A stretch of 64,000 bases of DNA from a virus. Lineage: Duplodnaviria > Caudoviricetes. The notes under the pieces were generated by a model. That model was not told where the DNA came from. It saw nothing but the letters and a program-made list of their open reading frames with translations, and did no database searches. The first letter of the stretch is position 1. Each line of letters starts with the position of its first letter. Of this stretch, positions 15,251 through 63,331 are shown in pieces. The stretch covers positions 45,564 through 109,563 of the IMG/VR virus record IMGVR_UViG_3300020379_000218; one strand, written 5' to 3'. Position numbers and translations under genes: made by a program.

Positions 15251-15898
15251 ATGAAACTTATTACAGAAACTCTGGAAAATGTAGAGTACATTACAGAAGA
15301 AACTAATGGCAAAACGAATTATAAGATTCGTGGTGTATTTCTACAATCTGAAATCAAAAACAGAAATGGAAGAGTTTATCCTAAAGATACATTAACACAA
15401 GAAGTTAATAGATACAATAGAGAATTTGTGGAACAGAAAAGAGCGTTTGGTGAATTAGGACATCCTGATGGACCAACGGTCAACTTGGAGAGAGTTAGTC
15501 ATATGATTACAAAACTCTATCCAGATGGCAACAACTTTATCGGTGAAGCAAAAGTAATGGACACACCCTACGGAAAGATTGTAAAAAATCTTATAGATGA
15601 AGGCGCTAAATTAGGCGTTTCTTCTCGTGGTATGGGTTCATTAGAGAGAAGTAGAAGTGGTGAAGCTAGGGTCGGAAACGACTTCTATCTTGCTACTGCT
15701 GCCGACATTGTGGCGGATCCAAGTGCTCCTGACGCTTTCGTAGAAGGAATTATGGAAGGTAAAGAGTGGATTTGGGACAATGGTGTTATTAAAGAAAAAG
15801 ATATAGAAGAATATAAACAATACATTAAGGAAGCAAAAAGACTAAAAATCGCTGAAGCGAAAGCTGAGGTATTTAGTAAGTTCCTTAAAGGATTGTAA
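15251..15898 (+). CDS. gp21: Prohead protease gp21
   Basis: MKLITE, NRNGRVYP, GELGHP, GVSSRGMGS, DIVADPSAPDA. Confidence 0.96.
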   Translation: MKLITETLENVEYITEETNGKTNYKIRGVFLQSEIKNRNGRVYPKDTLTQEVNRYNREFVEQKRAFGELGHPDGPTVNLERVSHMITKLYPDGNNFIGEAKVMDTPYGKIVKNLIDEGAKLGVSSRGMGSLERSRSGEARVGNDFYLATAADIVADPSAPDAFVEGIMEGKEWIWDNGVIKEKDIEEYKQYIKEAKRLKIAEAKAEVFSKFLKGL

Positions 15899-41496: not shown

Positions 41497-41939
41497 CAGA
41501 CAATGTAAAATGGTCACCGGAAGATATGCTAGAGGTCACAATCAAGCAACCTGACGATTTCCTAAAAGTAAGAGAGACATTAACAAGAATAGGTGTTGCT
41601 AGTCGTAAAGACAAAACACTATTTCAAAGTTGCCACATATTACACAAACAAGGCAAGTATTACATAGTACACTTCAAAGAACTATTTGCTTTAGATGGTA
41701 AGAAAGCAACCTTAACAGACAATGATATTCAGCGTAGAAATACTATTGCAGTATTACTAACAGATTGGAACTTAATTACGATAGTAAAACCAGAGGCTGC
41801 TGAAAACAAAGCACCACTATCACAAATTAAAGTGCTACCTTTCAAAGAAAAGAAAGAATGGAATCTTTCTGCCAAGTATAATATTGGTAAGAAGTTAGAC
41901 GAAAAAACCGAAGACAAAGTTTCAAATGAAGGTAAATAA
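41493..41939 (+). CDS. regA: Translational repressor RegA
   Basis: DDFLKVRETLTRIG, QSCHILHKQGKYYIVHFKELF. Confidence 0.96.
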   Translation: MTDNVKWSPEDMLEVTIKQPDDFLKVRETLTRIGVASRKDKTLFQSCHILHKQGKYYIVHFKELFALDGKKATLTDNDIQRRNTIAVLLTDWNLITIVKPEAAENKAPLSQIKVLPFKEKKEWNLSAKYNIGKKLDEKTEDKVSNEGK

Positions 41940-43432
41940 TGCAAGTAAAACAATTCAGCGACTTCCTATCTGAACAAACATTAGATAGAGAAAACAAACC
42001 AATAACTATTGCAGTTATCACAAAGACAAATCCTAATCTCAAAAAGAGAAAGGTTGGTGGTAAAGAAAGTAAAGAGTTAACGGTTAAGTTGATTGATGAA
42101 GCTTGCCAAGCAGTAAATCTAAAGTGTGTAGTTATTGAAACTAGACACGCAATTATCACAGGTAAAGACGAAGAAAAGAATACTTTGACCGTATATAACT
42201 ATGACGGCAAAGATAACGAACATACATTTATAGGTAAAGATACCGTTTGTATTACTAGAGCAGGTTCTGTAGAAGACGAAAGTGGTTTATCAATCGTTTC
42301 TGCTTTTCAAAACTCTGGTTCATTTATGTGTAATACAAGAAATGCAATGTTAACTTGTAATAACAAATTGACTACTGCTTTATTATTTGAAAAGTTTGGT
42401 ATACCAACACCGAAGACAGCGTTTGTATCTAACGAGAAAAACATAGATGACGCTTTAGAACTAATTGGTGGTGTAGATAAGTTTCCAGTAATATTAAAAA
42501 CACTAACAGGTACACAAGGTATCGGAGTTGTAAAGGTAGAGAGTTATGATTCTCTAGTTTCAACTATTCAAGCATTGTGGAAACATAATGCAGAATTACT
42601 AATACAAGAATTTATGCCTAGTGATTTTGATATTAGAACTTTCGTAGTAGATAACAAGATATTTGCAAGTACAAAAAGAATTCAAGGCTCAGACGATTTT
42701 AGAACTAATACTCATAGAGGTGCTGAAGCAGTACCATATAAGTTAAAAGACGAGGAAATAGAGGTCATACTCCGTGCTAGCAGGGCGTCAAAGGCGTATC
42801 TTTGTGGAGTTGACCATATCATACATAAAGGCAAACCTTATGTATTAGAAGTAAATGGTTCACCAGGAACTGGTGCAGAATATGAAGGATATATCTATAA
42901 AGACTTCTATTCGGATCCAGAAACAAAAGGTTCAATTAAAGGTGCTCAACTTGTAAAGAATTTAATCAAGTGGGTATCAGATAGAAAGAATTGGGATAGA
43001 CAATCTATTGCTGAAGTAGGTTGGTTAGAAACAATAGAAGTCGGCGACATTGGTAAAATGAGAGCGAAGATGGACACTGGTAACGGTGCTCACGCTTGTT
43101 CAATGCACGCTGAGAATATTAAAGTAGAAGGTAAAAAGGTAACCTGGAAGTACAACGGCAAGACATATTCGGCACCGAAGTACGGGGAATCAAAAGTCTT
43201 TCGTGCTAACGCAGAAGGTGAAGAACCATCAGAAGTTAGAACAACGGTACTACTTGACCTTACCTTTAACGGTTTCACATATCCTGATATTGAATTCGGA
43301 CTTGACCAAAGACCAAGGTCTGGTTCCGATGTTCTACTTAATAGAGAAGTAATCAGAATGTTCAATGCGTCTGTTAATCCTAATAGAACATTTGTACTAT
43401 CAAAAAGATTACCGCCTATTGACAAAGACTAA
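41939..43432 (+). CDS. rimK: RimK-family ATP-grasp ligase fused to a RimK-associated (RimB-like) aspartyl protease
   Basis: FPVILK, GTQGIGV, LIQEF, DFRTN, LEVNGSPG; C-terminal AKMDTGNG and LLNRE. Confidence 0.85.
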   Translation: MQVKQFSDFLSEQTLDRENKPITIAVITKTNPNLKKRKVGGKESKELTVKLIDEACQAVNLKCVVIETRHAIITGKDEEKNTLTVYNYDGKDNEHTFIGKDTVCITRAGSVEDESGLSIVSAFQNSGSFMCNTRNAMLTCNNKLTTALLFEKFGIPTPKTAFVSNEKNIDDALELIGGVDKFPVILKTLTGTQGIGVVKVESYDSLVSTIQALWKHNAELLIQEFMPSDFDIRTFVVDNKIFASTKRIQGSDDFRTNTHRGAEAVPYKLKDEEIEVILRASRASKAYLCGVDHIIHKGKPYVLEVNGSPGTGAEYEGYIYKDFYSDPETKGSIKGAQLVKNLIKWVSDRKNWDRQSIAEVGWLETIEVGDIGKMRAKMDTGNGAHACSMHAENIKVEGKKVTWKYNGKTYSAPKYGESKVFRANAEGEEPSEVRTTVLLDLTFNGFTYPDIEFGLDQRPRSGSDVLLNREVIRMFNASVNPNRTFVLSKRLPPIDKD

Positions 43433-54290: not shown

Positions 54291-54298
54291 TATAAATA
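54291..54298 (+). promoter_or_regulatory. Late promoter heading the 54366-63331 operon
   Basis: Exact TATAAATA in the intergenic gap. Confidence 0.75.
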
Positions 54299-54365: not shown

Positions 54366-55580
54366 ATGTTTAGTTTTAAAGGATATTCTAGCTCAGGTAC
54401 GAACACACACCTAGAGCATTTAGAAGACGAAATTATTAATAACGGAGCCAAAGGCGGTAGAAACGCAATAGCATTTTTACAATCTTTGCAGAAAATGTTA
54501 ACAGGTAATGTTAGCAATAGAGTAAATGTAACCGTTAAGTGGGACGGTGCTCCTGCGATAGTATGTGGAATCAATCCTGAAAACGGCAAATTCTTTGTCG
54601 GTACAAAATCTGTATTCAATAAAACTCCTAAAATCAATTACACTTCAGCAGACATTAATAGAAATCACCCAGGTGGTGTCGGTGCAAAATTACAAGTTGC
54701 ATTGAGAGAATTAAAAAAATTGGGTATAAGAGGTATCGTACAAGGCGATTGTCTCTTTACCAATGAAGATAAGAAAGTGGCAAACATAGATGGACAATCT
54801 ATGATTACCTTTACTCCTAACACAATAACATATGCTATGCCTGTTGCTAGTGCTGTCGGTCGTAAGATTGCTCGTGCTAGAATGGGCATAGTGTTCCATA
54901 CACAATATACAGGTTCAAAGATGTCTGAACTAAATGCCAACTATGGATATGTTAAAGGTATTAGAAGTGGTAGTGTATGGGTACCATCAGCAGAATATAA
55001 AGACGCAAGTGGTAGTGCCAGTTTCAATCGTGGAGAAGTTGCCAAGTTTAATGCACAATTAAGAATGGCACAAGGAAGTTTATCTAAAGCAGGTCCTATG
55101 TTAAATCAGTTTGATAGTAGAGACCCGAATAGTGTAGGTTTTAAATTAAAAACTTATTTCAATAGTATCGTAAGAGGTACACAAGGTATGGGAAGTGTTA
55201 AATCATTAGTAGATGGTTTTGGTCCATACTATGAGAATTTTATCAATGCAGAAATAGACGCAAGAAAAACAGCAAAAGGTAAAGAAAAATTTAAACAAGC
55301 AAAAGAAGAGAATATGAAATTTATTGCAAGAAATAAACAAGCACTTTATTTTGCAATTGCAACATATGTAACCTTACAGAATTGCAAAAACATTGTACTA
55401 CAAAAACTAGCACAGATACAATCAATCGGACATTTTTTAAGAACTGATAATGGTTATAAGGTAACATCACCTGAAGGTTATGTTGCAACAGATAAGATTG
55501 GTAATGTAGTTAAACTTGTAGACAGATTAGAATTTAGTAGAGCAAACTTTACTATTGCAAAAGATTGGGTGAAAGGATAA
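54366..55580 (+). CDS. Conserved T4-like protein with ligase-type nucleotidyltransferase motifs
   Basis: NTHLEHLED; TVKWDG (KxDG), VQGD, EGYV, VKLVDR. Confidence 0.6.
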   Translation: MFSFKGYSSSGTNTHLEHLEDEIINNGAKGGRNAIAFLQSLQKMLTGNVSNRVNVTVKWDGAPAIVCGINPENGKFFVGTKSVFNKTPKINYTSADINRNHPGGVGAKLQVALRELKKLGIRGIVQGDCLFTNEDKKVANIDGQSMITFTPNTITYAMPVASAVGRKIARARMGIVFHTQYTGSKMSELNANYGYVKGIRSGSVWVPSAEYKDASGSASFNRGEVAKFNAQLRMAQGSLSKAGPMLNQFDSRDPNSVGFKLKTYFNSIVRGTQGMGSVKSLVDGFGPYYENFINAEIDARKTAKGKEKFKQAKEENMKFIARNKQALYFAIATYVTLQNCKNIVLQKLAQIQSIGHFLRTDNGYKVTSPEGYVATDKIGNVVKLVDRLEFSRANFTIAKDWVKG

Positions 55581-55581
55581 T

Positions 55582-56181
55582 ATGGACACATTTAAACAAT
55601 ACCTATTTAATTATTTAAATGAAGCAAAACAAACCAGAGTTATCATAATGGGTGGTCCTGGAAGTGGTAAATCAACTTATAGTGAATACATTATAAGACA
55701 CTTCGGTATCAAACATATTTACCCAGGTGGTTTATTAAGAAAAGAAATTGATAAAGGTGGTCCTGAAGGACAAAAGATTAAGAACTTATTAGACCAAGGT
55801 AAGTTTGCACCTAACGAAACGGTATTAAAATTAGTTAAGAAAGCATTACAAGAGAAAGACGCTTCAAAAGGTTATGTGTTAGATGGTTATCCTAGATATA
55901 TGCAACAAGTAAGAGATATGGAACAAAATGGTATCGCTTATGATGTTGTTGTATTCCTTGATGTGAGTAAAGAAGAAGTTATTAAGAGACTTACAAAGAG
56001 AGGAAGAAAAGATGATAAGCCAGATATTATTAATGATAGAATCCAGTTATACAAAAAAGAGACAGGACCTGCCATTGAACATTTTAGGAAAAGACCTGGG
56101 TTTATATCTGTCAAAGCAGAAGGAAAAGAACCTGGCGATATTGCGAAAGACATTATTAAGGAGATAGAAAATGCAATTTAA
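55582..56181 (+). CDS. adk: Adenylate/NMP kinase, short LID
   Basis: GGPGSGKST, GGLLRKE, LDGYPR, RGRKDD. Confidence 0.9.
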   Translation: MDTFKQYLFNYLNEAKQTRVIIMGGPGSGKSTYSEYIIRHFGIKHIYPGGLLRKEIDKGGPEGQKIKNLLDQGKFAPNETVLKLVKKALQEKDASKGYVLDGYPRYMQQVRDMEQNGIAYDVVVFLDVSKEEVIKRLTKRGRKDDKPDIINDRIQLYKKETGPAIEHFRKRPGFISVKAEGKEPGDIAKDIIKEIENAI

Positions 56182-56488
56182 TGAATATCAAACTCTCGCT
56201 GCCAACACAGCAATATATCCACTTGCAAGTAAGGTAACTTATCCTGCATTAGGATTATGTGGTGAAGCAGGTGAAGTCGCAGAAAAAGTTAAGAAGAATA
56301 TTAGAGACGGTGCAAGTGAAACATTTAAAGAAGATATGAAAAAAGAACTAGGTGATGTACTATGGTATGTATCAGCACTCGCTAGAGATTTAGATATTAC
56401 ACTTGAAGATGTTGCAAATGCAAACTTAAAAAAATTAGAAGATAGAAAGAATAGAAACAAAATTAAAGGTAGTGGAGATGACCGATAA
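56171..56488 (+). CDS. mazG: MazG-like NTP pyrophosphohydrolase
   Basis: LGLCGEAGEVAEKVKK, KELGDVLWY, NLKKL. Confidence 0.9.
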   Translation: MQFNEYQTLAANTAIYPLASKVTYPALGLCGEAGEVAEKVKKNIRDGASETFKEDMKKELGDVLWYVSALARDLDITLEDVANANLKKLEDRKNRNKIKGSGDDR

Positions 56489-56768
56489 GTATAGACCTTT
56501 ACCAGATAATATTACAATTAAATTATCGCCCATAGAAGGTTTTGGTTTATTCGCTACAAAGAAGATTGATAAGATGACAGATTTAGGTATATCTCATTTA
56601 ACTATGGGAAGAGAATTATATAGAACACCACTTGGTGGTTTCTTAAATCATAGTGATAAACCTAATTGTCAAAAGATAGAAGTTGATGGAAAATATTATG
56701 TACAAACACTAACAGATATTAAAAAAGGAGAAGAGTTAACTTTAAAGTATACTCTATATAAAGTATGA
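56478..56768 (+). CDS. Minimal SET-domain methyltransferase
   Basis: SPIEGFGLFA, FLNHSDKPNC, IKKGEELTLKY. Confidence 0.88.
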   Translation: MTDKYRPLPDNITIKLSPIEGFGLFATKKIDKMTDLGISHLTMGRELYRTPLGGFLNHSDKPNCQKIEVDGKYYVQTLTDIKKGEELTLKYTLYKV

Positions 56769-57439
56769 AGACTTTTAAAGCACTAATACAAGAAGGCGTT
56801 TACGACCCAGGTATATTCAAAGCGTTCTTCCTTGCAGGTGGTCCAGGTTCTGGTAAATCATATGTTACCAATAGAACAACTGGAGGTATGGGTTTGAAGT
56901 TAGTAAACTCCGATATAAGATTTGAAAAATATTTAACAAAGGCAGGTCTCTCATTGAAAATGCCTGACAAAGAAGCAGACGCTAGAGACCCATTAAGACA
57001 AAGAGCAAAACAGGTTACTGGTGACCAGATGGACTTATATATTAGAAATAGATTAGGTCTAGTCATTGACGCTACTGGTAGAGACTATAACATTATTAAT
57101 AAACAAAGAAGTATGTTAAGAATGTTAGGTTACGATACTTATATGATGTTCGTAAATACTTCACTAGAAGTTGCATTAGCAAGAAACAAAGTAAGAACAA
57201 GAAGCGTACCACCTGAAATCGCAAAGAAAAGTTGGTCTGTCGTACAAAGTAATATCGGTAGATTTCAAAACTTATTTGGTGGTCAGAATATGATTGTTGT
57301 TGATAATAATAACGCAAGTGAAGATACATTAAATAAAGTATACACACGAATTAGAGGTTTAGTTAACAAACCTGTCCAGAATTTTGTTGCAAAAAGATGG
57401 ATAGAAAACGAGTTATCTAAAAAGAAAAATGCCAGATAA
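56765..57439 (+). CDS. Zeta-toxin/polynucleotide-kinase-like P-loop kinase
   Basis: LAGGPGSGKS, VNSD, LVIDATG, RNKVRTRSVP. Confidence 0.8.
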   Translation: MKTFKALIQEGVYDPGIFKAFFLAGGPGSGKSYVTNRTTGGMGLKLVNSDIRFEKYLTKAGLSLKMPDKEADARDPLRQRAKQVTGDQMDLYIRNRLGLVIDATGRDYNIINKQRSMLRMLGYDTYMMFVNTSLEVALARNKVRTRSVPPEIAKKSWSVVQSNIGRFQNLFGGQNMIVVDNNNASEDTLNKVYTRIRGLVNKPVQNFVAKRWIENELSKKKNAR

Positions 57440-60386
57440 TTTTCAAAAGAAACATAGAATGGACTATGTAAAAGAATTATTGAAGAAGTGCAAGTCTGTA
57501 GCAGAAGACTTGAATGATTTAACACACCCTAAAGTAGAACCAAAACCTGTACAAAATATTGTAGGTGATTGGAAGAAAATAGATGTAGCACCACCTACAG
57601 AAAACGATAGTCCAGAAACTAAAAGAGAAATGGAAATGATGACTGAACTATTTAAAGAAAGAAATAGTGCAGTTGAGAAAAGTGTAGAGAACCACGACCA
57701 AGAAGTATTTTATGGTATAGAAAAATACCTAATGCAATACAACCTTGAATATAATATGAAAGATATTAAAGAGTTGAAAAAAGCAGGTAGTGGTGTAGTA
57801 AGACATTATAAAAACAAATTTCAAAGACCAAGACCATATGAACTTGCAGAAGCAATGAATATGAAGTTTGATAGTATGGAGTTAATTTCAGATAGTATGA
57901 AAACTCCTGCGTATCCATCTGGTCATAGTTTACAAAGTAGACTACTTGCAGAATACTATGGTAAATTATATCCTAAACATAAAGATAATCTAATAGAACT
58001 TGCTGATGAATGTGGTTATGGTAGAGTTGTTGCAGGTTGGCATTATCCATCTGACCATTTAGTTTCTGTAAAAATTGCTCAGGAATTAATCAATATGGTT
58101 AATATTCAGGAAAGTATTATAGATATTCCTAGAAAAACATATGCACCAGGTGTATTTGATGACGAAGATACAAACAATCCTAAATTAAAACCAAGTGTAG
58201 TAAAACAAATACAAGACCAAATTAAAGTATTTGCAAAAGATTATCCAGTAATTAAGTATGGTTTAATCGGTTCTATATTAACAAAGAGATATAGAAATGA
58301 CGCAGATTTAGATATTAATGTATTGTTTGATGTACCAGTAGAAAAAAGAGAAGAAGAAAGAGTTAATCTTTCACAAAAATATTTAAGTGCAAAGAATCCT
58401 AATAGTGTGAATGGTAAATTAATACCAGGCACAAAACATCCTATTAACTATTATTTCTTAACAGACGAAGAAACATATAAATCACAAGAGAAGAAAGCAG
58501 ACGCAGTATTTTCAATTACTAGAAATGTATTTGTAAAAAGACCAGATGACTTTACTTTTAATGTAAGTGATTATATTGATGACTTCAATAAGAAAGTACA
58601 AGAAATAGATGTAGTCAAAGGTGAATTAAAAAGAGACATTATTGACTATGACGAATTACAAGAATTAGGTCCTAACGATATAGAAAACTTACAAGGTAGA
58701 ATAGAAAGTAAGTTAGAAGAAATAGAAAACGATATAGAGGACATAATAAAAATTGGTGACGGAGTTGACGCAGATAGACGAAGTGCGTTTGACAAAGATA
58801 TGTCGCCAGACGAAATCAGAAAGTATGGTATAAAAAATAGATTGCCTAAAAATGTAATCTATAAGATGTTAGAGAAATATCATTACATTACTTTCTATAA
58901 GAAGTGCAAGAAGATTTTAGATGACGGCGAGGTAACAGACGCTGAAATAGATAGTCTAAAAACTGAAGCAGTAGGCACACCTAAAAAACATATAGCATTT
59001 ACATTTGGTAGATTTAATCCACCAACGATAGGCCACGAAAAGTTAATTAACAAAGTGGCGTCTGTAGGTGCTAATGATTATCTCATTGTGCCAAGTGGTT
59101 CGCAAGACCCAAAGAAAAATCCATTAAAAGTTAACGACAAGATTAGAGTTATGAAGTCTATGTTTCCTAGACACGCAAGTAAGATAAAACAAATTACTGG
59201 TGCTAGAACAGCGATTGAAGTTGTTAATAAATTAAATGGCAAAGCAAACGAAATAACAATGGTAGTTGGTTCAGATAGAGTAAGAGAATTTGAAACACTA
59301 CTTAAAAAGTACAACGGTGTACAAGCAAGAGGAACTAATTACGAGTTTGATAAAATCAATATCGTATCTGCTGGCGAAAGAGACCCAGACGCTGAAGGCG
59401 CTATGGGAATGTCAGCAAGTAAAATGAGAGACGCTGCCACTAAAGGTGATTTAGTATCTTTCAAAAAAGGTTTACCAACTACATTTAGAGACAAAGAAAA
59501 ATTATTTGGTCTAATTAGAAAAGGTATGAACTTGGCTGCTGGTTATGGTCCTGGTTTAGGAACATATAAACCTATGACAAGTATTGAAAACTTTACTCAA
59601 TGGCAATTGAGAGACTTGTATATCCGTGAACAAATATTTAACATAAATGATATGGCTGAAGACCAAGAACAAGAAATTACAGGTAAAGTAATTCGTAGAA
59701 GTACGAACTATATTGTGTTAGAAGATAATAATTCTAACTTACATAAATGTTGGATTTGGAATTGTATTCCACAATCTTTCATAGACGAGACTAAACTACA
59801 CGAAATTAATTTAAATGTTGATTATGGTTTTGAAGCCGTGTCGGAAACGGAAGTCAAAATGAACAACGAAGAATATGGTAAGAAATTACCACAAGATAAA
59901 GATGTAAAAGATAAGAAAGGTACTCAACCGAAGAAGTACTATAAAGATATGAAGAAAGGTGAGAAAGACAAAAGAGCTGCTCACTTTGCAAAACAAAAAT
60001 ATAAGAAGTCTGATGGAGACAAAGATTATAAGGCTGCACCAGGCGACAAAGACGCAAAGACTAAAACTAGTGTACATACGAAGAAGTATCAACAGATGTA
60101 TGGTAAAGAAGCGTATGAGATAGGTAAAGATTGGGCTAATCATACTAAAGATATGACACCTGGAGAGACTAGTCCAGAGCGTCCTATAACGGCAAAAGAG
60201 CGTGCTGAACAAAGTCCAGAGAGAATTAATGCAGAAGATATACAGAAATGGGCTTCTTCAAGTGAGACTATTGATAAATATAAGAAACGATACGGCGAAG
60301 AGTATCAAAAAGAATTAGATGAAGCTGTGAATAAAATGGAGGAAAGATTGAAAGTACAATCTTTTAAAGAGTATGTTAAGATTTAG
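57429..60386 (+). CDS. Multidomain protein: PAP2 phosphatase, Pol-beta nucleotidyltransferase, HIGH-type cytidyltransferase-like domain and C-terminal modules
   Basis: KNKFQRPRP, PSGH, GRVVAGWHYPSD; IGS...DADLD; FGRFNPPTIGH and MSASKMR. Confidence 0.85.
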   Translation: MPDNFQKKHRMDYVKELLKKCKSVAEDLNDLTHPKVEPKPVQNIVGDWKKIDVAPPTENDSPETKREMEMMTELFKERNSAVEKSVENHDQEVFYGIEKYLMQYNLEYNMKDIKELKKAGSGVVRHYKNKFQRPRPYELAEAMNMKFDSMELISDSMKTPAYPSGHSLQSRLLAEYYGKLYPKHKDNLIELADECGYGRVVAGWHYPSDHLVSVKIAQELINMVNIQESIIDIPRKTYAPGVFDDEDTNNPKLKPSVVKQIQDQIKVFAKDYPVIKYGLIGSILTKRYRNDADLDINVLFDVPVEKREEERVNLSQKYLSAKNPNSVNGKLIPGTKHPINYYFLTDEETYKSQEKKADAVFSITRNVFVKRPDDFTFNVSDYIDDFNKKVQEIDVVKGELKRDIIDYDELQELGPNDIENLQGRIESKLEEIENDIEDIIKIGDGVDADRRSAFDKDMSPDEIRKYGIKNRLPKNVIYKMLEKYHYITFYKKCKKILDDGEVTDAEIDSLKTEAVGTPKKHIAFTFGRFNPPTIGHEKLINKVASVGANDYLIVPSGSQDPKKNPLKVNDKIRVMKSMFPRHASKIKQITGARTAIEVVNKLNGKANEITMVVGSDRVREFETLLKKYNGVQARGTNYEFDKINIVSAGERDPDAEGAMGMSASKMRDAATKGDLVSFKKGLPTTFRDKEKLFGLIRKGMNLAAGYGPGLGTYKPMTSIENFTQWQLRDLYIREQIFNINDMAEDQEQEITGKVIRRSTNYIVLEDNNSNLHKCWIWNCIPQSFIDETKLHEINLNVDYGFEAVSETEVKMNNEEYGKKLPQDKDVKDKKGTQPKKYYKDMKKGEKDKRAAHFAKQKYKKSDGDKDYKAAPGDKDAKTKTSVHTKKYQQMYGKEAYEIGKDWANHTKDMTPGETSPERPITAKERAEQSPERINAEDIQKWASSSETIDKYKKRYGEEYQKELDEAVNKMEERLKVQSFKEYVKI

Positions 60387-60912
60387 TGATTACGCAAACA
60401 AGATAACTACTAGTTTACACTATCACATAGAGAACAACATACCTCTTGCTGAAAACATTTATAGAGTACACAGCGAAGAGTTTTATGCCTTGTTTAGAGA
60501 AGCAAGACACTTATATAATGAAGGCCTTTTACAATGCGATAGTGAATGGGATGTAAAATTGTTAGAAACTAATATCGGAGAATTTGCCGATTACGAAGGT
60601 ATGAAAGTACCTTTAGATTGTCCGATACAAGAAGAAGACGAAAAGAATCCGCCTTTAAACAAACCAAAAAAAGGTGGACCTAAAAAGTTTTATGTCTTTG
60701 TAAGAGACGGTGAAAAGATTAAAAAGGTAACTTGGGGAGACACAACTGGTTTAAAAGTCAAATTGAATGACAAAGAAGCCAGAAAATCTTTTGCAGCTAG
60801 GCACAGATGTGACCAGCAGAAAGATAGAACAAAAGCCGCATATTGGGCTTGTAATCTTCCGAGATATGCGAAGTCATTAGGACTATCGGGAGGTGGTAAC
60901 TTTTACTGGTAG
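60373..60912 (+). CDS. Conserved hypothetical protein
   Basis: LNKPKKGGPKKFYVFV, ARKSFAARHRC, AAYWAC. Confidence 0.65.
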   Translation: MLRFSDYANKITTSLHYHIENNIPLAENIYRVHSEEFYALFREARHLYNEGLLQCDSEWDVKLLETNIGEFADYEGMKVPLDCPIQEEDEKNPPLNKPKKGGPKKFYVFVRDGEKIKKVTWGDTTGLKVKLNDKEARKSFAARHRCDQQKDRTKAAYWACNLPRYAKSLGLSGGGNFYW

Positions 60913-60915
60913 GAG

Positions 60916-61197
60916 GTGACGATGGAATTTTATGATATGCGACCAGATGAAACGGCGACGGAAGATGTATTTCAACGAAGTTTCAATCAGGATGCCAAAG
61001 AAGAAAATTTAGTTTGGCATAGAGATAAAAGAGATAGAGAGATAAGAATTATTGCAGGAGTAAATTGGAAATTACAAATGGACAATCAACTCCCAGTCGT
61101 TATGAAAGTCGGAGATGTTTTCAACATACCTAAGGAAACATTTCATAGAGTACATAAAGGTGAAGGTAGACTAATAATAGAAATAAAGGAATCTTAG
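60916..61197 (+). CDS. Cupin-fold protein
   Basis: WHRD, IPKETFHRV; AGGAG RBS. Confidence 0.7.
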   Translation: MTMEFYDMRPDETATEDVFQRSFNQDAKEENLVWHRDKRDREIRIIAGVNWKLQMDNQLPVVMKVGDVFNIPKETFHRVHKGEGRLIIEIKES

Positions 61198-61206
61198 GAG
61201 AATAAA

Positions 61207-63024
61207 ATGACAAGATATACGCAATCAATGAGAGCCGCATTAGAAGAGGTGTGGGCAAATGATATTCAAATTGATGAAGGCAAAATGAAGACTATCGCAA
61301 CTCTCTTTGACCAGGGTAAATCTGCCGAAGACATTGCAAAGAAAATGAAGTTGCCACTAGCAACTATCAAAACAATTCTAGGTGAAGAAGATATTAAAGA
61401 AGATAATCTTTTAGAGTTTACAGACGCTCAAATTGCAAAACTTAAAAAAGAATATTCAGGACTTGCAGGTAAAAGAATTTCACTTGCGAGAGCAAACCAA
61501 TTAAGAAATATCTTTGATAGAATTGCAGATGTTCAATTACCTAAACTCTTCAAAGCAGACATTCCTTTTATTAGTGCTATGGCAGTATCTCGTATGATAC
61601 AAAAAGGTATCAAAGTACCTAAAGGTGTTAAACTAACAGCATTTGAAAATAAATCTTGGGACCAAGTTATTTCAGAATATACAGAATATGTTGAGTATAT
61701 GGCAAAGAACTCTGGTGAAGCAAGTAAGATTGCCTCTATGTTTAAAGGTAAAACTGGTGGTGGAGAAATTTCTAAATCTGGTTCAGAAGTTAGAATTGAT
61801 AGTGCAAAAGATGTTGAACCTATACACAACACGGTAATGAAAAACTTTCCTGATACTAGAATACTTACAAAAGAAGATGACGAATTAAAAGAAGGTACTG
61901 GAACTATCAAAGGTTTTAGAGACGACAAAGAAAAATCAAATATGATTTCACTTGCGAAACAACACGGACTTAAAGTTTCAGATGTTGCAGGTGGTATACA
62001 ATTAAAAGGTAATATGAGAAAGATATTAGATATGCAGTTGGCTGCTGGTTCACACTTGAAGACAGAAAGTTTAGATGAAGCAGTACTTGCTGGTAGAGAT
62101 TACAAATATACAGGTAAAGGTCCTGTAGAAATCAGTAAAGCAAACTTTAAAAAGATTTCAAAAGACTTTAAGAAGACAACACCAGGGCAAGAAATGATGG
62201 TAGTACTTGACCCTAAAACACACGGCACGGTACTTGCACCTGTTAAGTTTACAGAAGAAACAGAAAACGGTGAAGTAGATAGTGGTAAGATTAAATTAAA
62301 AGATTTAATTGGTAAGAAAGAAGACAAGAAAGAAGATAATAAAGAAAAGACTAAAGATACAATTGATGGTTTAAAAGACCAAATTCATATGTTGAAAACA
62401 AAATTAGAAAACGAAAAGAATAAGGCAATCAAACCTGAACCAAATCCTGATACAGGTGAAGTTCCTCTCCAAGTTGGTATTGCACATAAGATATTAAGAG
62501 ATAAAGAAAAAGCTGAAACAAAAAAGAAATCTGTAGATGAAGGCTTCGCTTCAGACGCACAAAGAAAAGCTGCGTTTGCAAACGGATATAAAGAAAAAGG
62601 TAAAGACAAAAAAGAAGATACAGACTTAACTAAAGACCAAATCAAACAAGTACACAAAAAGGCAGATGAATTACCGAAGAAGAAATTTAAAGACGCTTAT
62701 GGTAAAAAAGGTGATAGTGTAAGATATGGTACAGCAACTAATATAGTTAAGAAGAAATTAAATATAGAGAATAAAGACCATCCTGCTAAAATGAAGTACG
62801 AACAGATAGAAGGTCTTAAAAAGAAAGCAGAAAAATCTGGAATGCCATATGGTATTCTAAAGAAAGTTTACGATAGAGGAATGGCTGCCTGGAAAGGTGG
62901 ACATAGACCTGGTGCTAGTCAACATCAATGGGCATTTGCTAGAGTAAATTCATTCATAACAAAATCAAGTGGAACTTGGGGTGGGGCAGACAAAGACCTT
63001 GCCGCTAAAGTAAAAGGAAAGTAA
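61207..63024 (+). CDS. Lys/Glu-rich modular protein, probable internal head polyprotein
   Basis: Short modules separated by hydrophobic-x-E sites; C-terminal VYDRGMAAW...WAFARVNSF domain. Confidence 0.6.
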   Translation: MTRYTQSMRAALEEVWANDIQIDEGKMKTIATLFDQGKSAEDIAKKMKLPLATIKTILGEEDIKEDNLLEFTDAQIAKLKKEYSGLAGKRISLARANQLRNIFDRIADVQLPKLFKADIPFISAMAVSRMIQKGIKVPKGVKLTAFENKSWDQVISEYTEYVEYMAKNSGEASKIASMFKGKTGGGEISKSGSEVRIDSAKDVEPIHNTVMKNFPDTRILTKEDDELKEGTGTIKGFRDDKEKSNMISLAKQHGLKVSDVAGGIQLKGNMRKILDMQLAAGSHLKTESLDEAVLAGRDYKYTGKGPVEISKANFKKISKDFKKTTPGQEMMVVLDPKTHGTVLAPVKFTEETENGEVDSGKIKLKDLIGKKEDKKEDNKEKTKDTIDGLKDQIHMLKTKLENEKNKAIKPEPNPDTGEVPLQVGIAHKILRDKEKAETKKKSVDEGFASDAQRKAAFANGYKEKGKDKKEDTDLTKDQIKQVHKKADELPKKKFKDAYGKKGDSVRYGTATNIVKKKLNIENKDHPAKMKYEQIEGLKKKAEKSGMPYGILKKVYDRGMAAWKGGHRPGASQHQWAFARVNSFITKSSGTWGGADKDLAAKVKGK

Positions 63025-63025
63025 T

Positions 63026-63331
63026 ATGTCATATTTAAAAAGTAAACCTGGTTCAGTAGAAGAAGCGATAACAGCTGCAGTAATGCAAGAGAAGTTATCT
63101 CCTAAACAACAGAAACTAGATAAGAACAATAACGGTAAGATAGATGGTTCTGACCTTGCAAAATTAAGAGCAAAGAAAGAAGATAATACTGGAGATACGG
63201 TATTACCTAAATCACAGGAACCAAAAGACCCTATGAACATCAAGTCTAAAGAACCTGAAAAGAAAACTACTGAAAATCAGACAAAATCTGACAAGATAGA
63301 TGTTAATCCAAAGATAGATTATCAAGCATAA
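63026..63331 (+). CDS. Small EF-hand-like protein
   Basis: LDKNNNGKIDGSDL. Confidence 0.65.
   Translation: MSYLKSKPGSVEEAITAAVMQEKLSPKQQKLDKNNNGKIDGSDLAKLRAKKEDNTGDTVLPKSQEPKDPMNIKSKEPEKKTTENQTKSDKIDVNPKIDYQA

What the first reader, a model, noticed from the sequence alone, without database searches (positions are those of the whole stretch)
57429..60386. Three-enzyme polyprotein with gp21-like sites at the domain junctions
Seen: PAP2 phosphatase, Pol-beta nucleotidyltransferase and HIGH-type nucleotidyltransferase domains share one ORF. The junctions read NIQE|S (E228) and LKTE|A (E513), with FIDE|T and KLHE|I (E787, E792) before the tail and SVAE|D near the N-terminus. Known: marine T4-like phages usually have a cytidyltransferase gene in this neighbourhood. 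Inference: extra enzyme modules were added to a packaged scaffold and are released by the prohead protease, a polyprotein strategy in a dsDNA phage.
Basis: partly seen in the sequence, partly recalled or inferred. Interest (0 to 1): 0.8.

Follow-up and report, generated by a model that had tools for sequence, protein, structure and literature searches.

The report
Capsid-cargo enzyme fusion with cleavage-type junctions
A marine T4-like phage joins three enzymes into one late protein whose joints are the remains of the short "load me into the head and cut here" tags that T4 uses, so the enzymes are probably packed into the capsid, cut apart and injected with the DNA, though no cleavage has been shown.

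Summary
ORF 57429-60386 (985 aa) carries a PAP2 acid phosphatase, a Pol-beta-type nucleotidyltransferase (NTase), an HxGH adenylyl/cytidylyltransferase (CTase) and a lysine-rich tail.

Raw motif counting does not support the idea: (L/I)xE occurs 11 times against 10.7 expected. Comparative data do.
- Each module also exists as a separate gene. Its product starts with a roughly 10-residue leader (logo M-K-T-F-K-Q-F-L-x-E|S). This matches the T4 capsid targeting sequence (CTS) MKTYQEFIAE at its four functional positions and ends exactly at the fusion junction.
- In 33 non-redundant fusions, junction 1 keeps Glu at P1 and a hydrophobic P3 in 33/33. Junction 2 keeps Glu in 33/33 and a hydrophobic P3 in 29/33.
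- The window's own LKTE|A is one of the exceptions at junction 2.
- In the AlphaFold model, all five quoted sites lie in confidence dips between folded units.
- The operon has a T4-type late promoter.
- Published virion proteomes contain homologs of the CTase.

I read it as concatenated capsid cargo, probably cut at E228 and less surely at E513 (confidence 0.5). E26, E787 and E792 are not conserved. Cleavage, packaging and substrates are untested. This scan has already noted CTS-tagged enzymes on other genomes. Novelty: new variant of a known kind.

The parts
57429..60386 (+). 985-aa three-enzyme fusion ORF (P0001). It overlaps the upstream kinase gene by 11 nt.
57429..57506 (+). N-terminal 26 residues. 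Predicted helix 3-29 with low confidence, ending SVAE|D. It is not a typical CTS and is conserved only in the closest relatives.
57516..58091 (+). PAP2 class-A acid phosphatase module (residues 30-221). Motifs KX6RP, PSGH and RX5HX3D are present.
58104..58115 (+). Junction 1, I-Q-E228|S. A canonical (L/I)xE site in a coil linker with pLDDT about 72-77.
58113..58961 (+). Nucleotidyltransferase module (residues 229-511): minimal Pol-beta (MNT-like) core plus helical bundle.
58956..58970 (+). Junction 2, L-K-T-E513|A. Glu-Ala is invariant in the family, but P3 is Lys here. It sits at a helix end, in a block with pLDDT about 60.
58989..59771 (+). HxGH (TIGH) adenylyl/cytidylyltransferase module with a NadD/NMNAT/PPAT-like fold (residues 521-about 700), plus a helix and a small beta domain (residues 742-781).
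59778..59807 (+). FIDE787|T and KLHE792|I at the start of a disordered stretch. Poorly conserved.
59808..60383 (+). Lysine-rich tail, partly disordered, with a more confident helix at residues 935-975.
54291..54298 (+). T4-type late promoter motif TATAAATA at the head of the tightly packed operon 54366-63331.
56765..57439 (+). Zeta/AAA_33-type P-loop kinase starting with the CTS-like leader MKTFKALIQE|G. It is fused in frame to the target's family in relative P0009.
55582..56181 (+). Adenylate kinase with an N-terminal extension, MDTFKQYLFNYLNE|A.
15251..15898 (+). gp21-type prohead protease. Its N-terminus MKLITE|T aligns with T4 LLIE|T. Its C-terminus holds YIKE|A and KIAE|A.

Best explanation
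The ORF is a late-expressed chain of three autonomous enzyme modules plus a basic tail. The modules are a PhoN-like PAP2 phosphatase, an MNT-like Pol-beta nucleotidyltransferase with a helical bundle, and a NadD/NMNAT-like HxGH adenylyltransferase. Each module belongs to a family of capsid cargo proteins of marine T4-like phages.

Shown here:
- The modules occur as separate genes. Their products begin with a roughly 10-residue leader that matches the T4 capsid targeting sequence at the two targeting positions (aromatic 4 and 7) and the two processing positions (I/L 8 and Glu 10).
- That leader ends exactly at the residue that forms the junction in the fusion.
- Fusions keep the processing determinants (hydrophobic P3, Glu P1, Ser/Ala P1') at both junctions.
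- The junctions are flexible linkers in the model.

Inferred:
- The protein is made late and incorporated into the prohead core.
- The gp21-type protease (15251-15898) cuts it after E228 (likely) and after E513 (less likely in this phage, where P3 is Lys).
- The freed enzymes stay in the head and enter the host with the DNA.
- There they act on nucleotides, NAD-type cofactors or RNA ends before any phage gene is expressed.

The substrates are unknown.
For: (1) Module boundaries. Stand-alone proteins match query residues about 20-225, 226-511 and 514 onwards.

(2) Leaders.
- 89 of 95 stand-alone NTase modules have Glu at the junction-equivalent position. The modal leader length is 10. The logo is M-K-T/K-F-K/R-Q/E-F/Y-I/L-x-E|S.
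- The T4 CTS is MKTYQEFIAE (PMC8442874). Residues 4 and 7 drive targeting and residues 8 and 10 drive processing (PMC9026906, sec. 2.6).
- A relaxed CTS pattern hits 38/95 NTase, 5/12 CTase and 3/7 PAP2 stand-alone proteins against 2/115 genome ORFs.

(3) The same leader sits on unrelated folds, so it is a portable tag and not part of a fold.
- In the window: adenylate kinase and Zeta-like kinase.
- In cultured phages: Syn9 gp184 MKKFSAFLSE|A, Melnitz gp18 MKKFSEIIE|A, DUF6267 and DUF5824 proteins.

(4) Fusion junctions in 33 non-redundant relatives.
- Junction 1: Glu 33/33, hydrophobic P3 33/33, Ser/Ala P1' 33/33, aromatics at P7 and P4 0/33.
- Junction 2: Glu 33/33, Ala 32/33, hydrophobic P3 29/33.
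- Some fusions embed a whole leader with its Met, for example MKTFKTFIE|S.
- The four-module relative P0009 has canonical sites at all four boundaries.

(5) AlphaFold model. pLDDT is 80.7 but pTM is 0.40. The five quoted sites lie in confidence dips (66, 72, 60, 57-44). The other eight (L/I)xE motifs lie in blocks of 85-95.

(6) The machinery is present: gp21-type protease, scaffold, and an MCP with an aligned FMTE|T maturation site. The late promoter TATAAATA is at 54291, as it is before the protease and scaffold genes.

(7) NMNAT-like/cytidylyltransferase homologs were detected in four cyanophage virion proteomes (PMC9602691, PMC10665884).
Against: - The (L/I)xE count in the protein is what chance gives.
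- The window's own N-terminus is a 26-residue helix ending V-A-E|D. It is not a typical CTS and is not conserved, so how this particular protein would be targeted is open.
- Junction 2 is K-T-E here, which is not canonical.
- E787 and E792 are poorly conserved.
- Glu-Ser-Ile-Ile-Asp and Glu-Ala run straight into conserved module residues, so part of the junction conservation could be structural.
- T4 internal proteins are cut only once.
- The proteomics authors themselves warn of possible contamination by abundant proteins.
- There is no proteomic or biochemical evidence for this phage.
Confidence: 0.5

Rival explanations
1. The protein is packaged but not cut between modules. It is loaded into the head as one multidomain enzyme, like T4 Alt, trimmed at most at its ends. 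The junction motifs are inherited linker sequence from the gene fusions.
For: - T4 internal proteins are cut once, and Alt is a large enzyme trimmed only at its termini (PMC8442874, PMC9026906).
- Junction 2 is non-canonical in this phage.
- The conserved residues after each Glu belong to the modules.
Against: - Hydrophobic P3 and Glu P1 are kept in 33/33 fusions at junction 1 while the neighbouring targeting positions decayed.
- Leaderless or Asp-at-P1 stand-alone modules exist, so Glu is not needed for the fold.
- The junctions are flexible and exposed in the model.
Confidence: 0.2
2. The protein is not packaged at all. It is an ordinary cytoplasmic multifunctional enzyme of late infection, and the leader-like junctions are fossils of the fused genes.
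For: - There is no motif enrichment.
- The protein's own N-terminus is not CTS-like.
- Neighbouring MazG and SET genes in the same operon have no leader.
- The proteomics papers admit possible carry-over (PMC10665884).
Against: - The leader matches the T4 CTS at all four functional positions and occurs on many unrelated folds.
- Homologs of the CTase turn up repeatedly in virion proteomes (PMC9602691, PMC10665884).
- The gene sits behind a late promoter shared with head genes.
Confidence: 0.2
3. Internal translation start at the junction. Met223 (M-V-N-I-Q-E|S) is used as a second start, giving a separate NTase-CTase protein with its own mini-leader beside the full-length chain.
For: - An AGGA lies 10 nt upstream of the Met223 codon. 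Only 2 of 28 in-frame Met codons have such a motif.
- Stand-alone NTase-CTase proteins start with six-residue leaders such as MKTFKE|S.
- T4 gene 21 itself has an internal start.
Against: - The spacing and strength of the motif are weak.
- Most fusion relatives have no Met at that exact position, or have it at varying offsets.
- This does not exclude cleavage.
Confidence: 0.07

Closest known systems
T4 internal proteins IPI, IPII, IPIII with their capsid targeting sequence (MKTYQEFIAE)
   Same: - A roughly 10-residue N-terminal leader with aromatics at positions 4 and 7, I/L at 8 and Glu at 10.
- The genome has a gp21-type protease and a scaffold core.
- The cargo is basic and lysine-rich.
   Different: - T4 IPs are small non-enzymatic or anti-restriction proteins cut once.
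- Here the cargo is enzymes and several are chained in one ORF.
- The leader-derived sites are internal.
- This protein's own N-terminus is atypical.
T4 Alt (packaged and injected ADP-ribosyltransferase, trimmed by gp21 at both ends)
   Same: A large enzyme carried in the head and delivered with the DNA. Processing by the prohead protease after Glu.
   Different: Alt is a single enzyme. No internal cut separates functional modules. The folds are unrelated.
Processed head and ejection proteins of giant phages phiKZ, 201phi2-1 and SPN3US
   Same: Many head proteins are cut after Glu at short motifs by a gp21-related protease. The protease trims its own C-terminus (PMC5694885). The window protease has IKE|A and IAE|A near its C-terminus.
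   Different: Their motif is (A/S/G)xE. Their propeptides are often over 100 residues long and are discarded. They are not chains of recognisable enzymes.
Virion-associated NMNAT-like/cytidylyltransferase proteins of cyanomyoviruses (S-SCSM1 ORF91, S-CBWM1, S-CREM2 ORF154; family of Syn9 gp184)
   Same: Homologous to residues about 520-830. Found in purified virions by mass spectrometry.
   Different: They are single-module proteins. The papers give no loading mechanism and mention no CTS. The PAP2 and NTase modules are absent from all 50,697 deposited phage records searched.

Membership tests
T4-type CTS cargo (internal-protein-like) | N-terminal propeptide of 10-19 residues with targeting residues (aromatic 4 and 7) | tested here: inconclusive
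   Met for stand-alone homologs of all three modules and for the two upstream kinases. The target's own N-terminus (26 residues, F5, Y13) is atypical.
T4-type CTS cargo (internal-protein-like) | Processing site with hydrophobic P3, any residue at P2, and Glu at P1 | tested here: met
   IQE228|S is canonical and kept in 33/33 relatives. KTE513|A is not canonical here, but 29/33 relatives have a hydrophobic P3.
T4-type CTS cargo (internal-protein-like) | The phage has a gp21-type protease and a scaffold core | tested here: met
   phrog_207 at 7e-78 and phrog_237 at 1.5e-84, plus alignment to T4 gp21 and gp23.
T4-type CTS cargo (internal-protein-like) | Present in the mature head and actually cleaved | not testable with these tools
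   Only literature on homologs of the CTase in cyanophage virions (PMC9602691, PMC10665884).
PAP2 / class-A acid phosphatase | Motifs KX6RP, PSGH and SRX5HX3D, and a Pfam score above the cut-off | tested here: met
   KNKFQRPRP, YPSGHS and GRVVAGWHYPSD (Gly in place of Ser) read. PF01569 scores 38.7 against 27.2. PDB acid phosphatases at 1.4e-7. Foldseek TMt about 0.65.
Pol-beta nucleotidyltransferase superfamily | The hG[GS]x9-13Dh[DE]h signature and the fold | tested here: met
   IGSILTKRYRNDADLDINV. G56, D68 and D70 are invariant or nearly invariant in 51 sequences. PF01909 scores 21.4 against 21.0, which is borderline. 1ylq gives Z 8.1 with rmsd 2.9 over 90 residues, and 2rff gives TMt 0.56.
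HIGH-motif (CTP_transf_like) nucleotidyltransferases, NadD/NMNAT/PPAT group | The (H/T)xGH motif and the Rossmann fold | tested here: met
   FGRFNPPTIGH. PF01467 scores 35.4 against 21. Foldseek gives NadD, NadM and PPAT at TMt 0.6-0.7.
HIGH-motif (CTP_transf_like) nucleotidyltransferases, NadD/NMNAT/PPAT group | Substrate (NMN/NaMN, phosphopantetheine or a CTP acceptor) | not testable with these tools
   No sequence match to any solved member at E below 0.1. The names in databases are automatic.
Viral polyprotein (several mature enzymes released from one ORF by the viral protease) | Cleavage between functional modules, demonstrated experimentally | not testable with these tools
   Only site conservation and linker position.

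The most novel reading that the evidence does not exclude
This is a true polyprotein in a tailed dsDNA phage. The prohead protease cuts the chain at leader-derived junctions inside the capsid. That releases three separate, ready-made enzymes (four in relatives such as P0009), which are injected with the DNA as a pre-expression toolkit for nucleotide, NAD or RNA-end chemistry. The whole late operon 54366-63331, and its counterparts in pelagiphages and cyanophages, would be a cargo locus that evolves by shuffling CTS-tagged modules.
Probability: 0.35. Interest if true: 0.8.

Novelty: new variant of a known kind. Interest (0 to 1): 0.62.

Why it matters
T4-like phages are among the most abundant viruses in the ocean. 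What they carry into the cell besides DNA is almost unknown.

If the reading holds, three things follow.
- The T4 capsid-targeting system, studied only in coliphage T4, is the general loading route for a large and shuffling repertoire of enzymes in pelagiphages and cyanophages.
- It explains why 'cytidyltransferase/NMNAT-like' proteins keep turning up in cyanophage virion proteomes.
- It shows a polyprotein-like strategy in a tailed phage.

It also gives a simple sequence rule for predicting injected proteins from metagenomes: leader M-K-T-F-K-Q-F-L-x-E, or its remnant hydrophobic-x-E|S/A at module joints. And it points to early, pre-transcriptional host manipulation or counter-defence chemistry that can be tested in cultured systems such as Melnitz, Mosig, Syn9 and S-CREM2.

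Tried and rejected
- **Motif enrichment.** The count of (L/I)xE against 5000 shuffles shows none, 11 against 10.7.
- **Strict 10-residue CTS pattern.** It hits 28/95 NTase modules but 0/12 CTase and 0/7 PAP2 stand-alone proteins, because those leaders are one residue shorter or longer. Only a relaxed pattern separates them from background.
- **Genomic context of stand-alone NTase modules.** They are not flanked by PAP2 and CTase genes. A simple 'three adjacent genes lost their stops' history is not shown for these lineages.
- **Function of the neighbours.** PDB sequence searches with the Zeta-like kinase and DUF6267 gave nothing useful. PADLOC gave only a weak PDC-S09 hit on the NTase core.
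- **Structure search of the NTase module without Foldseek.** It returned mostly generic helical bundles. Only the minimal NTase core is informative.
- **Literature.** A search for Syn9 gp184 in virion data found nothing. No paper in the library joins 'capsid targeting sequence' with cyanophages apart from a T4 review.
- **Frameshift idea.** I considered a programmed frameshift joining the kinase to the target through the A-rich overlap at about 57416-57439. It would need a +1 shift, and I did not pursue it.
- **Complex prediction.** I did not run a protease-substrate complex prediction, because enzyme-substrate pairs are a poor use of that test.
Full report
**1. What is there**

The window is part of a 110-kb contig of an uncultured marine T4-like phage. 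Its major capsid protein is 79% identical to that of Pelagibacter phage Mosig, 75% to Methylophilales phage Melnitz and 72% to HTVC008M.

ORF 57429-60386 (+) encodes 985 residues. Pfam finds three domains:
- PAP2, residues 126-217, above its cut-off.
- NTP_transf_2/Polbeta, residues 264-321, just at its cut-off.
- CTP_transf_like, residues 525-628, above its cut-off.

PHROGs named 'cytidyltransferase' cover residues 517-827. The catalytic signatures can be read in the sequence:
- PAP2: KX6RP, PSGH and RX5HX3D.
- Pol-beta NTase: G-S-x10-D-L-D.
- HIGH-type NTase: T-I-G-H.

**2. The simple version of the argument fails**

The T4 protease motif (L/I)-x-E occurs 11 times. Shuffled sequences of the same composition give 10.7 +/- 2.9. 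LKTE and SVAE do not fit the motif. The mere presence of such tetrapeptides therefore says nothing.

**3. Module boundaries**

I ran an exhaustive profile-free search of 1.8 billion representative proteins with the N-terminal half. It shows that residues 226-511 exist as a separate protein of about 285-300 aa in very many sequences, and residues about 20-225 as a separate protein of about 210-220 aa.

A second search shows the same for the CTase part. E228 and E513 are thus the real joints between autonomous modules.

The modules also occur in other orders and combinations:
- CTase followed later by PAP2.
- Kinase, NTase and CTase.
- NTase and CTase.
- Fusions with DUF5824.
- A four-module chain with the upstream Zeta-like kinase in front (P0009).

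The three-module form itself has thousands of relatives in marine metagenomes. Its N-terminal half has no match in 50,697 deposited phage genomes.

**4. The key result: leaders**

The separate NTase modules begin with leaders such as MKTFKQFLYE|S, MKTFKEFLKE|S and MRAFRKFIAE|S.
- Over 95 such proteins, 89 have Glu at the position that corresponds to E228.
- The commonest leader length is 10.
- The logo is M-K-(T/K)-F-(K/R)-(Q/E)-(F/Y)-(I/L)-x-E | S-(I/V)-(I/V)-D.

The T4 capsid targeting sequence is MKTYQEFIAE (PMC8442874, section 'Encapsidation'). In it, residues 4 and 7 carry targeting and residues 8 and 10 carry processing. Asp at position 10 blocks cutting but not loading (PMC9026906, section 2.6). 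All four functional positions and the length agree.

Other separate modules carry similar leaders:
- CTases start MKKFSELIE|A, MRKFIELTE|A and MKKFKEITE|A. The Glu lies a few residues before the first strand of the Rossmann fold.
- Separate PAP2 proteins often start MSFKTFCEYILQE|Y or MSFKNYLRE|N.

In cultured phages the same tag heads several proteins:
- Syn9 gp184: MKKFSAFLSE|A.
- Melnitz gp18: MKKFSEIIE|A.
- The DUF6267 proteins of Melnitz and C48C1.
- A small basic protein.
- A DUF5824 protein.

In the window it heads the two genes just upstream, the Zeta-like kinase (MKTFKALIQE|G) and the adenylate kinase (MDTFKQYLFNYLNE|A). In each it is an extension before the P-loop strand.

A relaxed pattern for the tag hits 38/95, 5/12 and 3/7 of the separate NTase, CTase and PAP2 proteins. 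It hits only 2/115 ORFs of this genome, and one of those two is the neighbouring kinase. A tag that sits on at least eight unrelated folds is a portable signal, not part of a fold.

**5. The junctions of the fusions**

I compared 33 full-length relatives that are less than 88% identical to each other.

| Position | Junction 1 | Junction 2 |
|---|---|---|
| P1 = Glu | 33/33 | 33/33 |
| P3 hydrophobic | 33/33 (F, L, M, I) | 29/33 |
| P1' | Ser/Ala 33/33 | Ala 32/33 |
| Aromatic at P7 and P4 | 0/33 | 0/33 |

The four exceptions at junction 2 are the window's own subgroup (LKTE, LKNE).

Several fusions still hold a whole leader with its Met at junction 1, for example ...KEMKTFKTFIE|SIIDIPR. In P0009 all four boundaries are canonical: IQE|G, IRE|S, LQE|S and LKE|A.

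Processing positions are kept while the aromatic targeting positions are absent. This is what one expects if downstream modules ride in on the chain and only need to be cut free. It is suggestive, not proof.

Some separate modules lack the leader or have Asp at P1. The Glu is therefore not needed for folding.

**6. Structure**

The AlphaFold model of the whole protein has mean pLDDT 80.7 but pTM 0.40 (58-sequence alignment). That means confident domains without a fixed mutual arrangement.
- E26, E228, E513 and E787/E792 fall in confidence dips (about 66, 72, 60 and 57-44).
- E228 is in a coil after the last PAP2 helix.
- E513 is at the end of the last helix of the NTase module, five residues before the first CTase strand.
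- The other eight (L/I)xE motifs lie in blocks of pLDDT 85-95.

Fold neighbours:
- PAP2 module: PhoN/PhoC class-A acid phosphatases.
- CTase module: NadD, NadM and PPAT.
- Middle module, folded alone at pLDDT 95.5: a minimal (MNT-like) nucleotidyltransferase core plus a helical bundle, with only loose likeness to ANT/LinB and CD-NTase enzymes.

**7. Machinery and timing**

The window has a portal, a gp21-type protease, a scaffold and an MCP. I read the reference sites from the T4 record:
- gp23: FLTE|A.
- gp24: LLRE|S.
- gp67: LIE|A.
- gp21: LLIE|T.

The window MCP aligns with FMTE|T, and the protease N-terminus aligns with LITE|T. The protease C-terminus holds YIKE|A and KIAE|A. This fits the C-terminal self-trimming known for this protease family (PMC5694885).

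TATAAATA occurs nine times, always on the + strand. It lies before the protease (15218) and the scaffold (15902), and at 54291 at the head of the tightly packed operon that contains the target.

**8. Outside evidence**

NMNAT-like/cytidylyltransferase proteins were found by mass spectrometry in virions of S-SCSM1, S-CBWM1, another estuarine Synechococcus phage and S-CREM2. The authors caution about carry-over (PMC9602691; PMC10665884). Neither paper mentions a CTS. In the paper library no paper other than a T4 review holds both 'capsid targeting sequence' and 'cyanophage'.

**9. Verdict**

The best reading is a chain of capsid cargo enzymes whose joints are leader-derived protease sites.
- Cutting at E228 is likely.
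- Cutting at E513 is doubtful in this phage.
- E26, E787 and E792 are weak.
- How this particular chain is targeted is open, because its own N-terminus is not a typical CTS. Relatives solve this with the kinase's leader (P0009) or with MKFKDFID-type starts.

The rivals cannot be excluded without proteomics. They are packaging without internal cuts, no packaging at all, and an internal start at Met223.

What the enzymes do is unknown. A nucleotide, NAD or RNA-end toolkit acting before phage gene expression is a reasonable guess from the folds and from the neighbouring kinases, MazG and the KxDG protein DUF6267. None of it was tested.

**10. Relation to earlier notes of this scan**

I found the leader lead, before opening the notes. 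The notes show that first readers flagged CTS-like N-termini in this same operon. Follow-up agents had reached similar readings on other genomes, among them a CTS-tagged nucleotidyltransferase of a cyanophage and a triple-enzyme chain in a jumbo phage. The theme is therefore not new to the scan.

Noticed in passing
54366-55580: DUF6267 protein (PF19782, 8e-123) with a KWDG motif typical of ligase/capping-type nucleotidyltransferases. PHROG 455 shows that in other phages it is fused to the cytidyltransferase. Relatives in Melnitz and C48C1 start with full CTS-like leaders. The window copy keeps F4 and Y7 but has no hydrophobic-x-E.
   Followed up: partly
61207-63024: 605-aa protein whose C-terminal 70 residues are DUF5824. 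This matches the C-terminal end of PHROG 3041 ('cytidyltransferase'), so it is another module that is fused to the CTase elsewhere (for example P0115).
   Followed up: partly
41939-43432: 497-aa ORF starting MQVKQFSDFLSE|Q. It is the only other N-terminal hit of the core motif F-x-x-F-L-x-E in the 110-kb contig, and it lies far from the cargo operon.
   Followed up: no
15251-15898: The prohead protease carries the CTS-like core Y-K-Q-Y-I-K-E|A, followed by K-I-A-E|A, 12-27 residues from its C-terminus. These are candidate self-trimming sites.
   Followed up: partly
57416-57439: The kinase gene and the target overlap by 11 nt within an A-rich run (AAAAAGAAAAATG). In relative P0009 the two are one in-frame ORF joined by LGIRE|S.
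   Followed up: partly
58082-58097: An AGGA lies 10 nt upstream of the in-frame Met223 codon at junction 1. Only 2 of 28 in-frame Met codons of the ORF have such a motif. This is a possible internal start.
   Followed up: partly
56171-56768: A small MazG-type pyrophosphohydrolase and a 98-aa SET-domain protein sit between the two tagged kinases. They have no leader.
   Followed up: no
L005:401-679: In a metagenomic contig that carries a stand-alone NTase module, a 92-aa neighbour starts MSLTYQEFIQRLDE|S. Its TYQEFI is identical to the core of the T4 CTS.
   Followed up: no
window, 9 sites (861, 4426, 6573, 15218, 15902, 18653, 19824, 38094, 54291): All nine TATAAATA motifs are on the + strand, and most lie just upstream of gene starts. 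The total count is not above chance, so the strand and the position carry the signal.
   Followed up: partly
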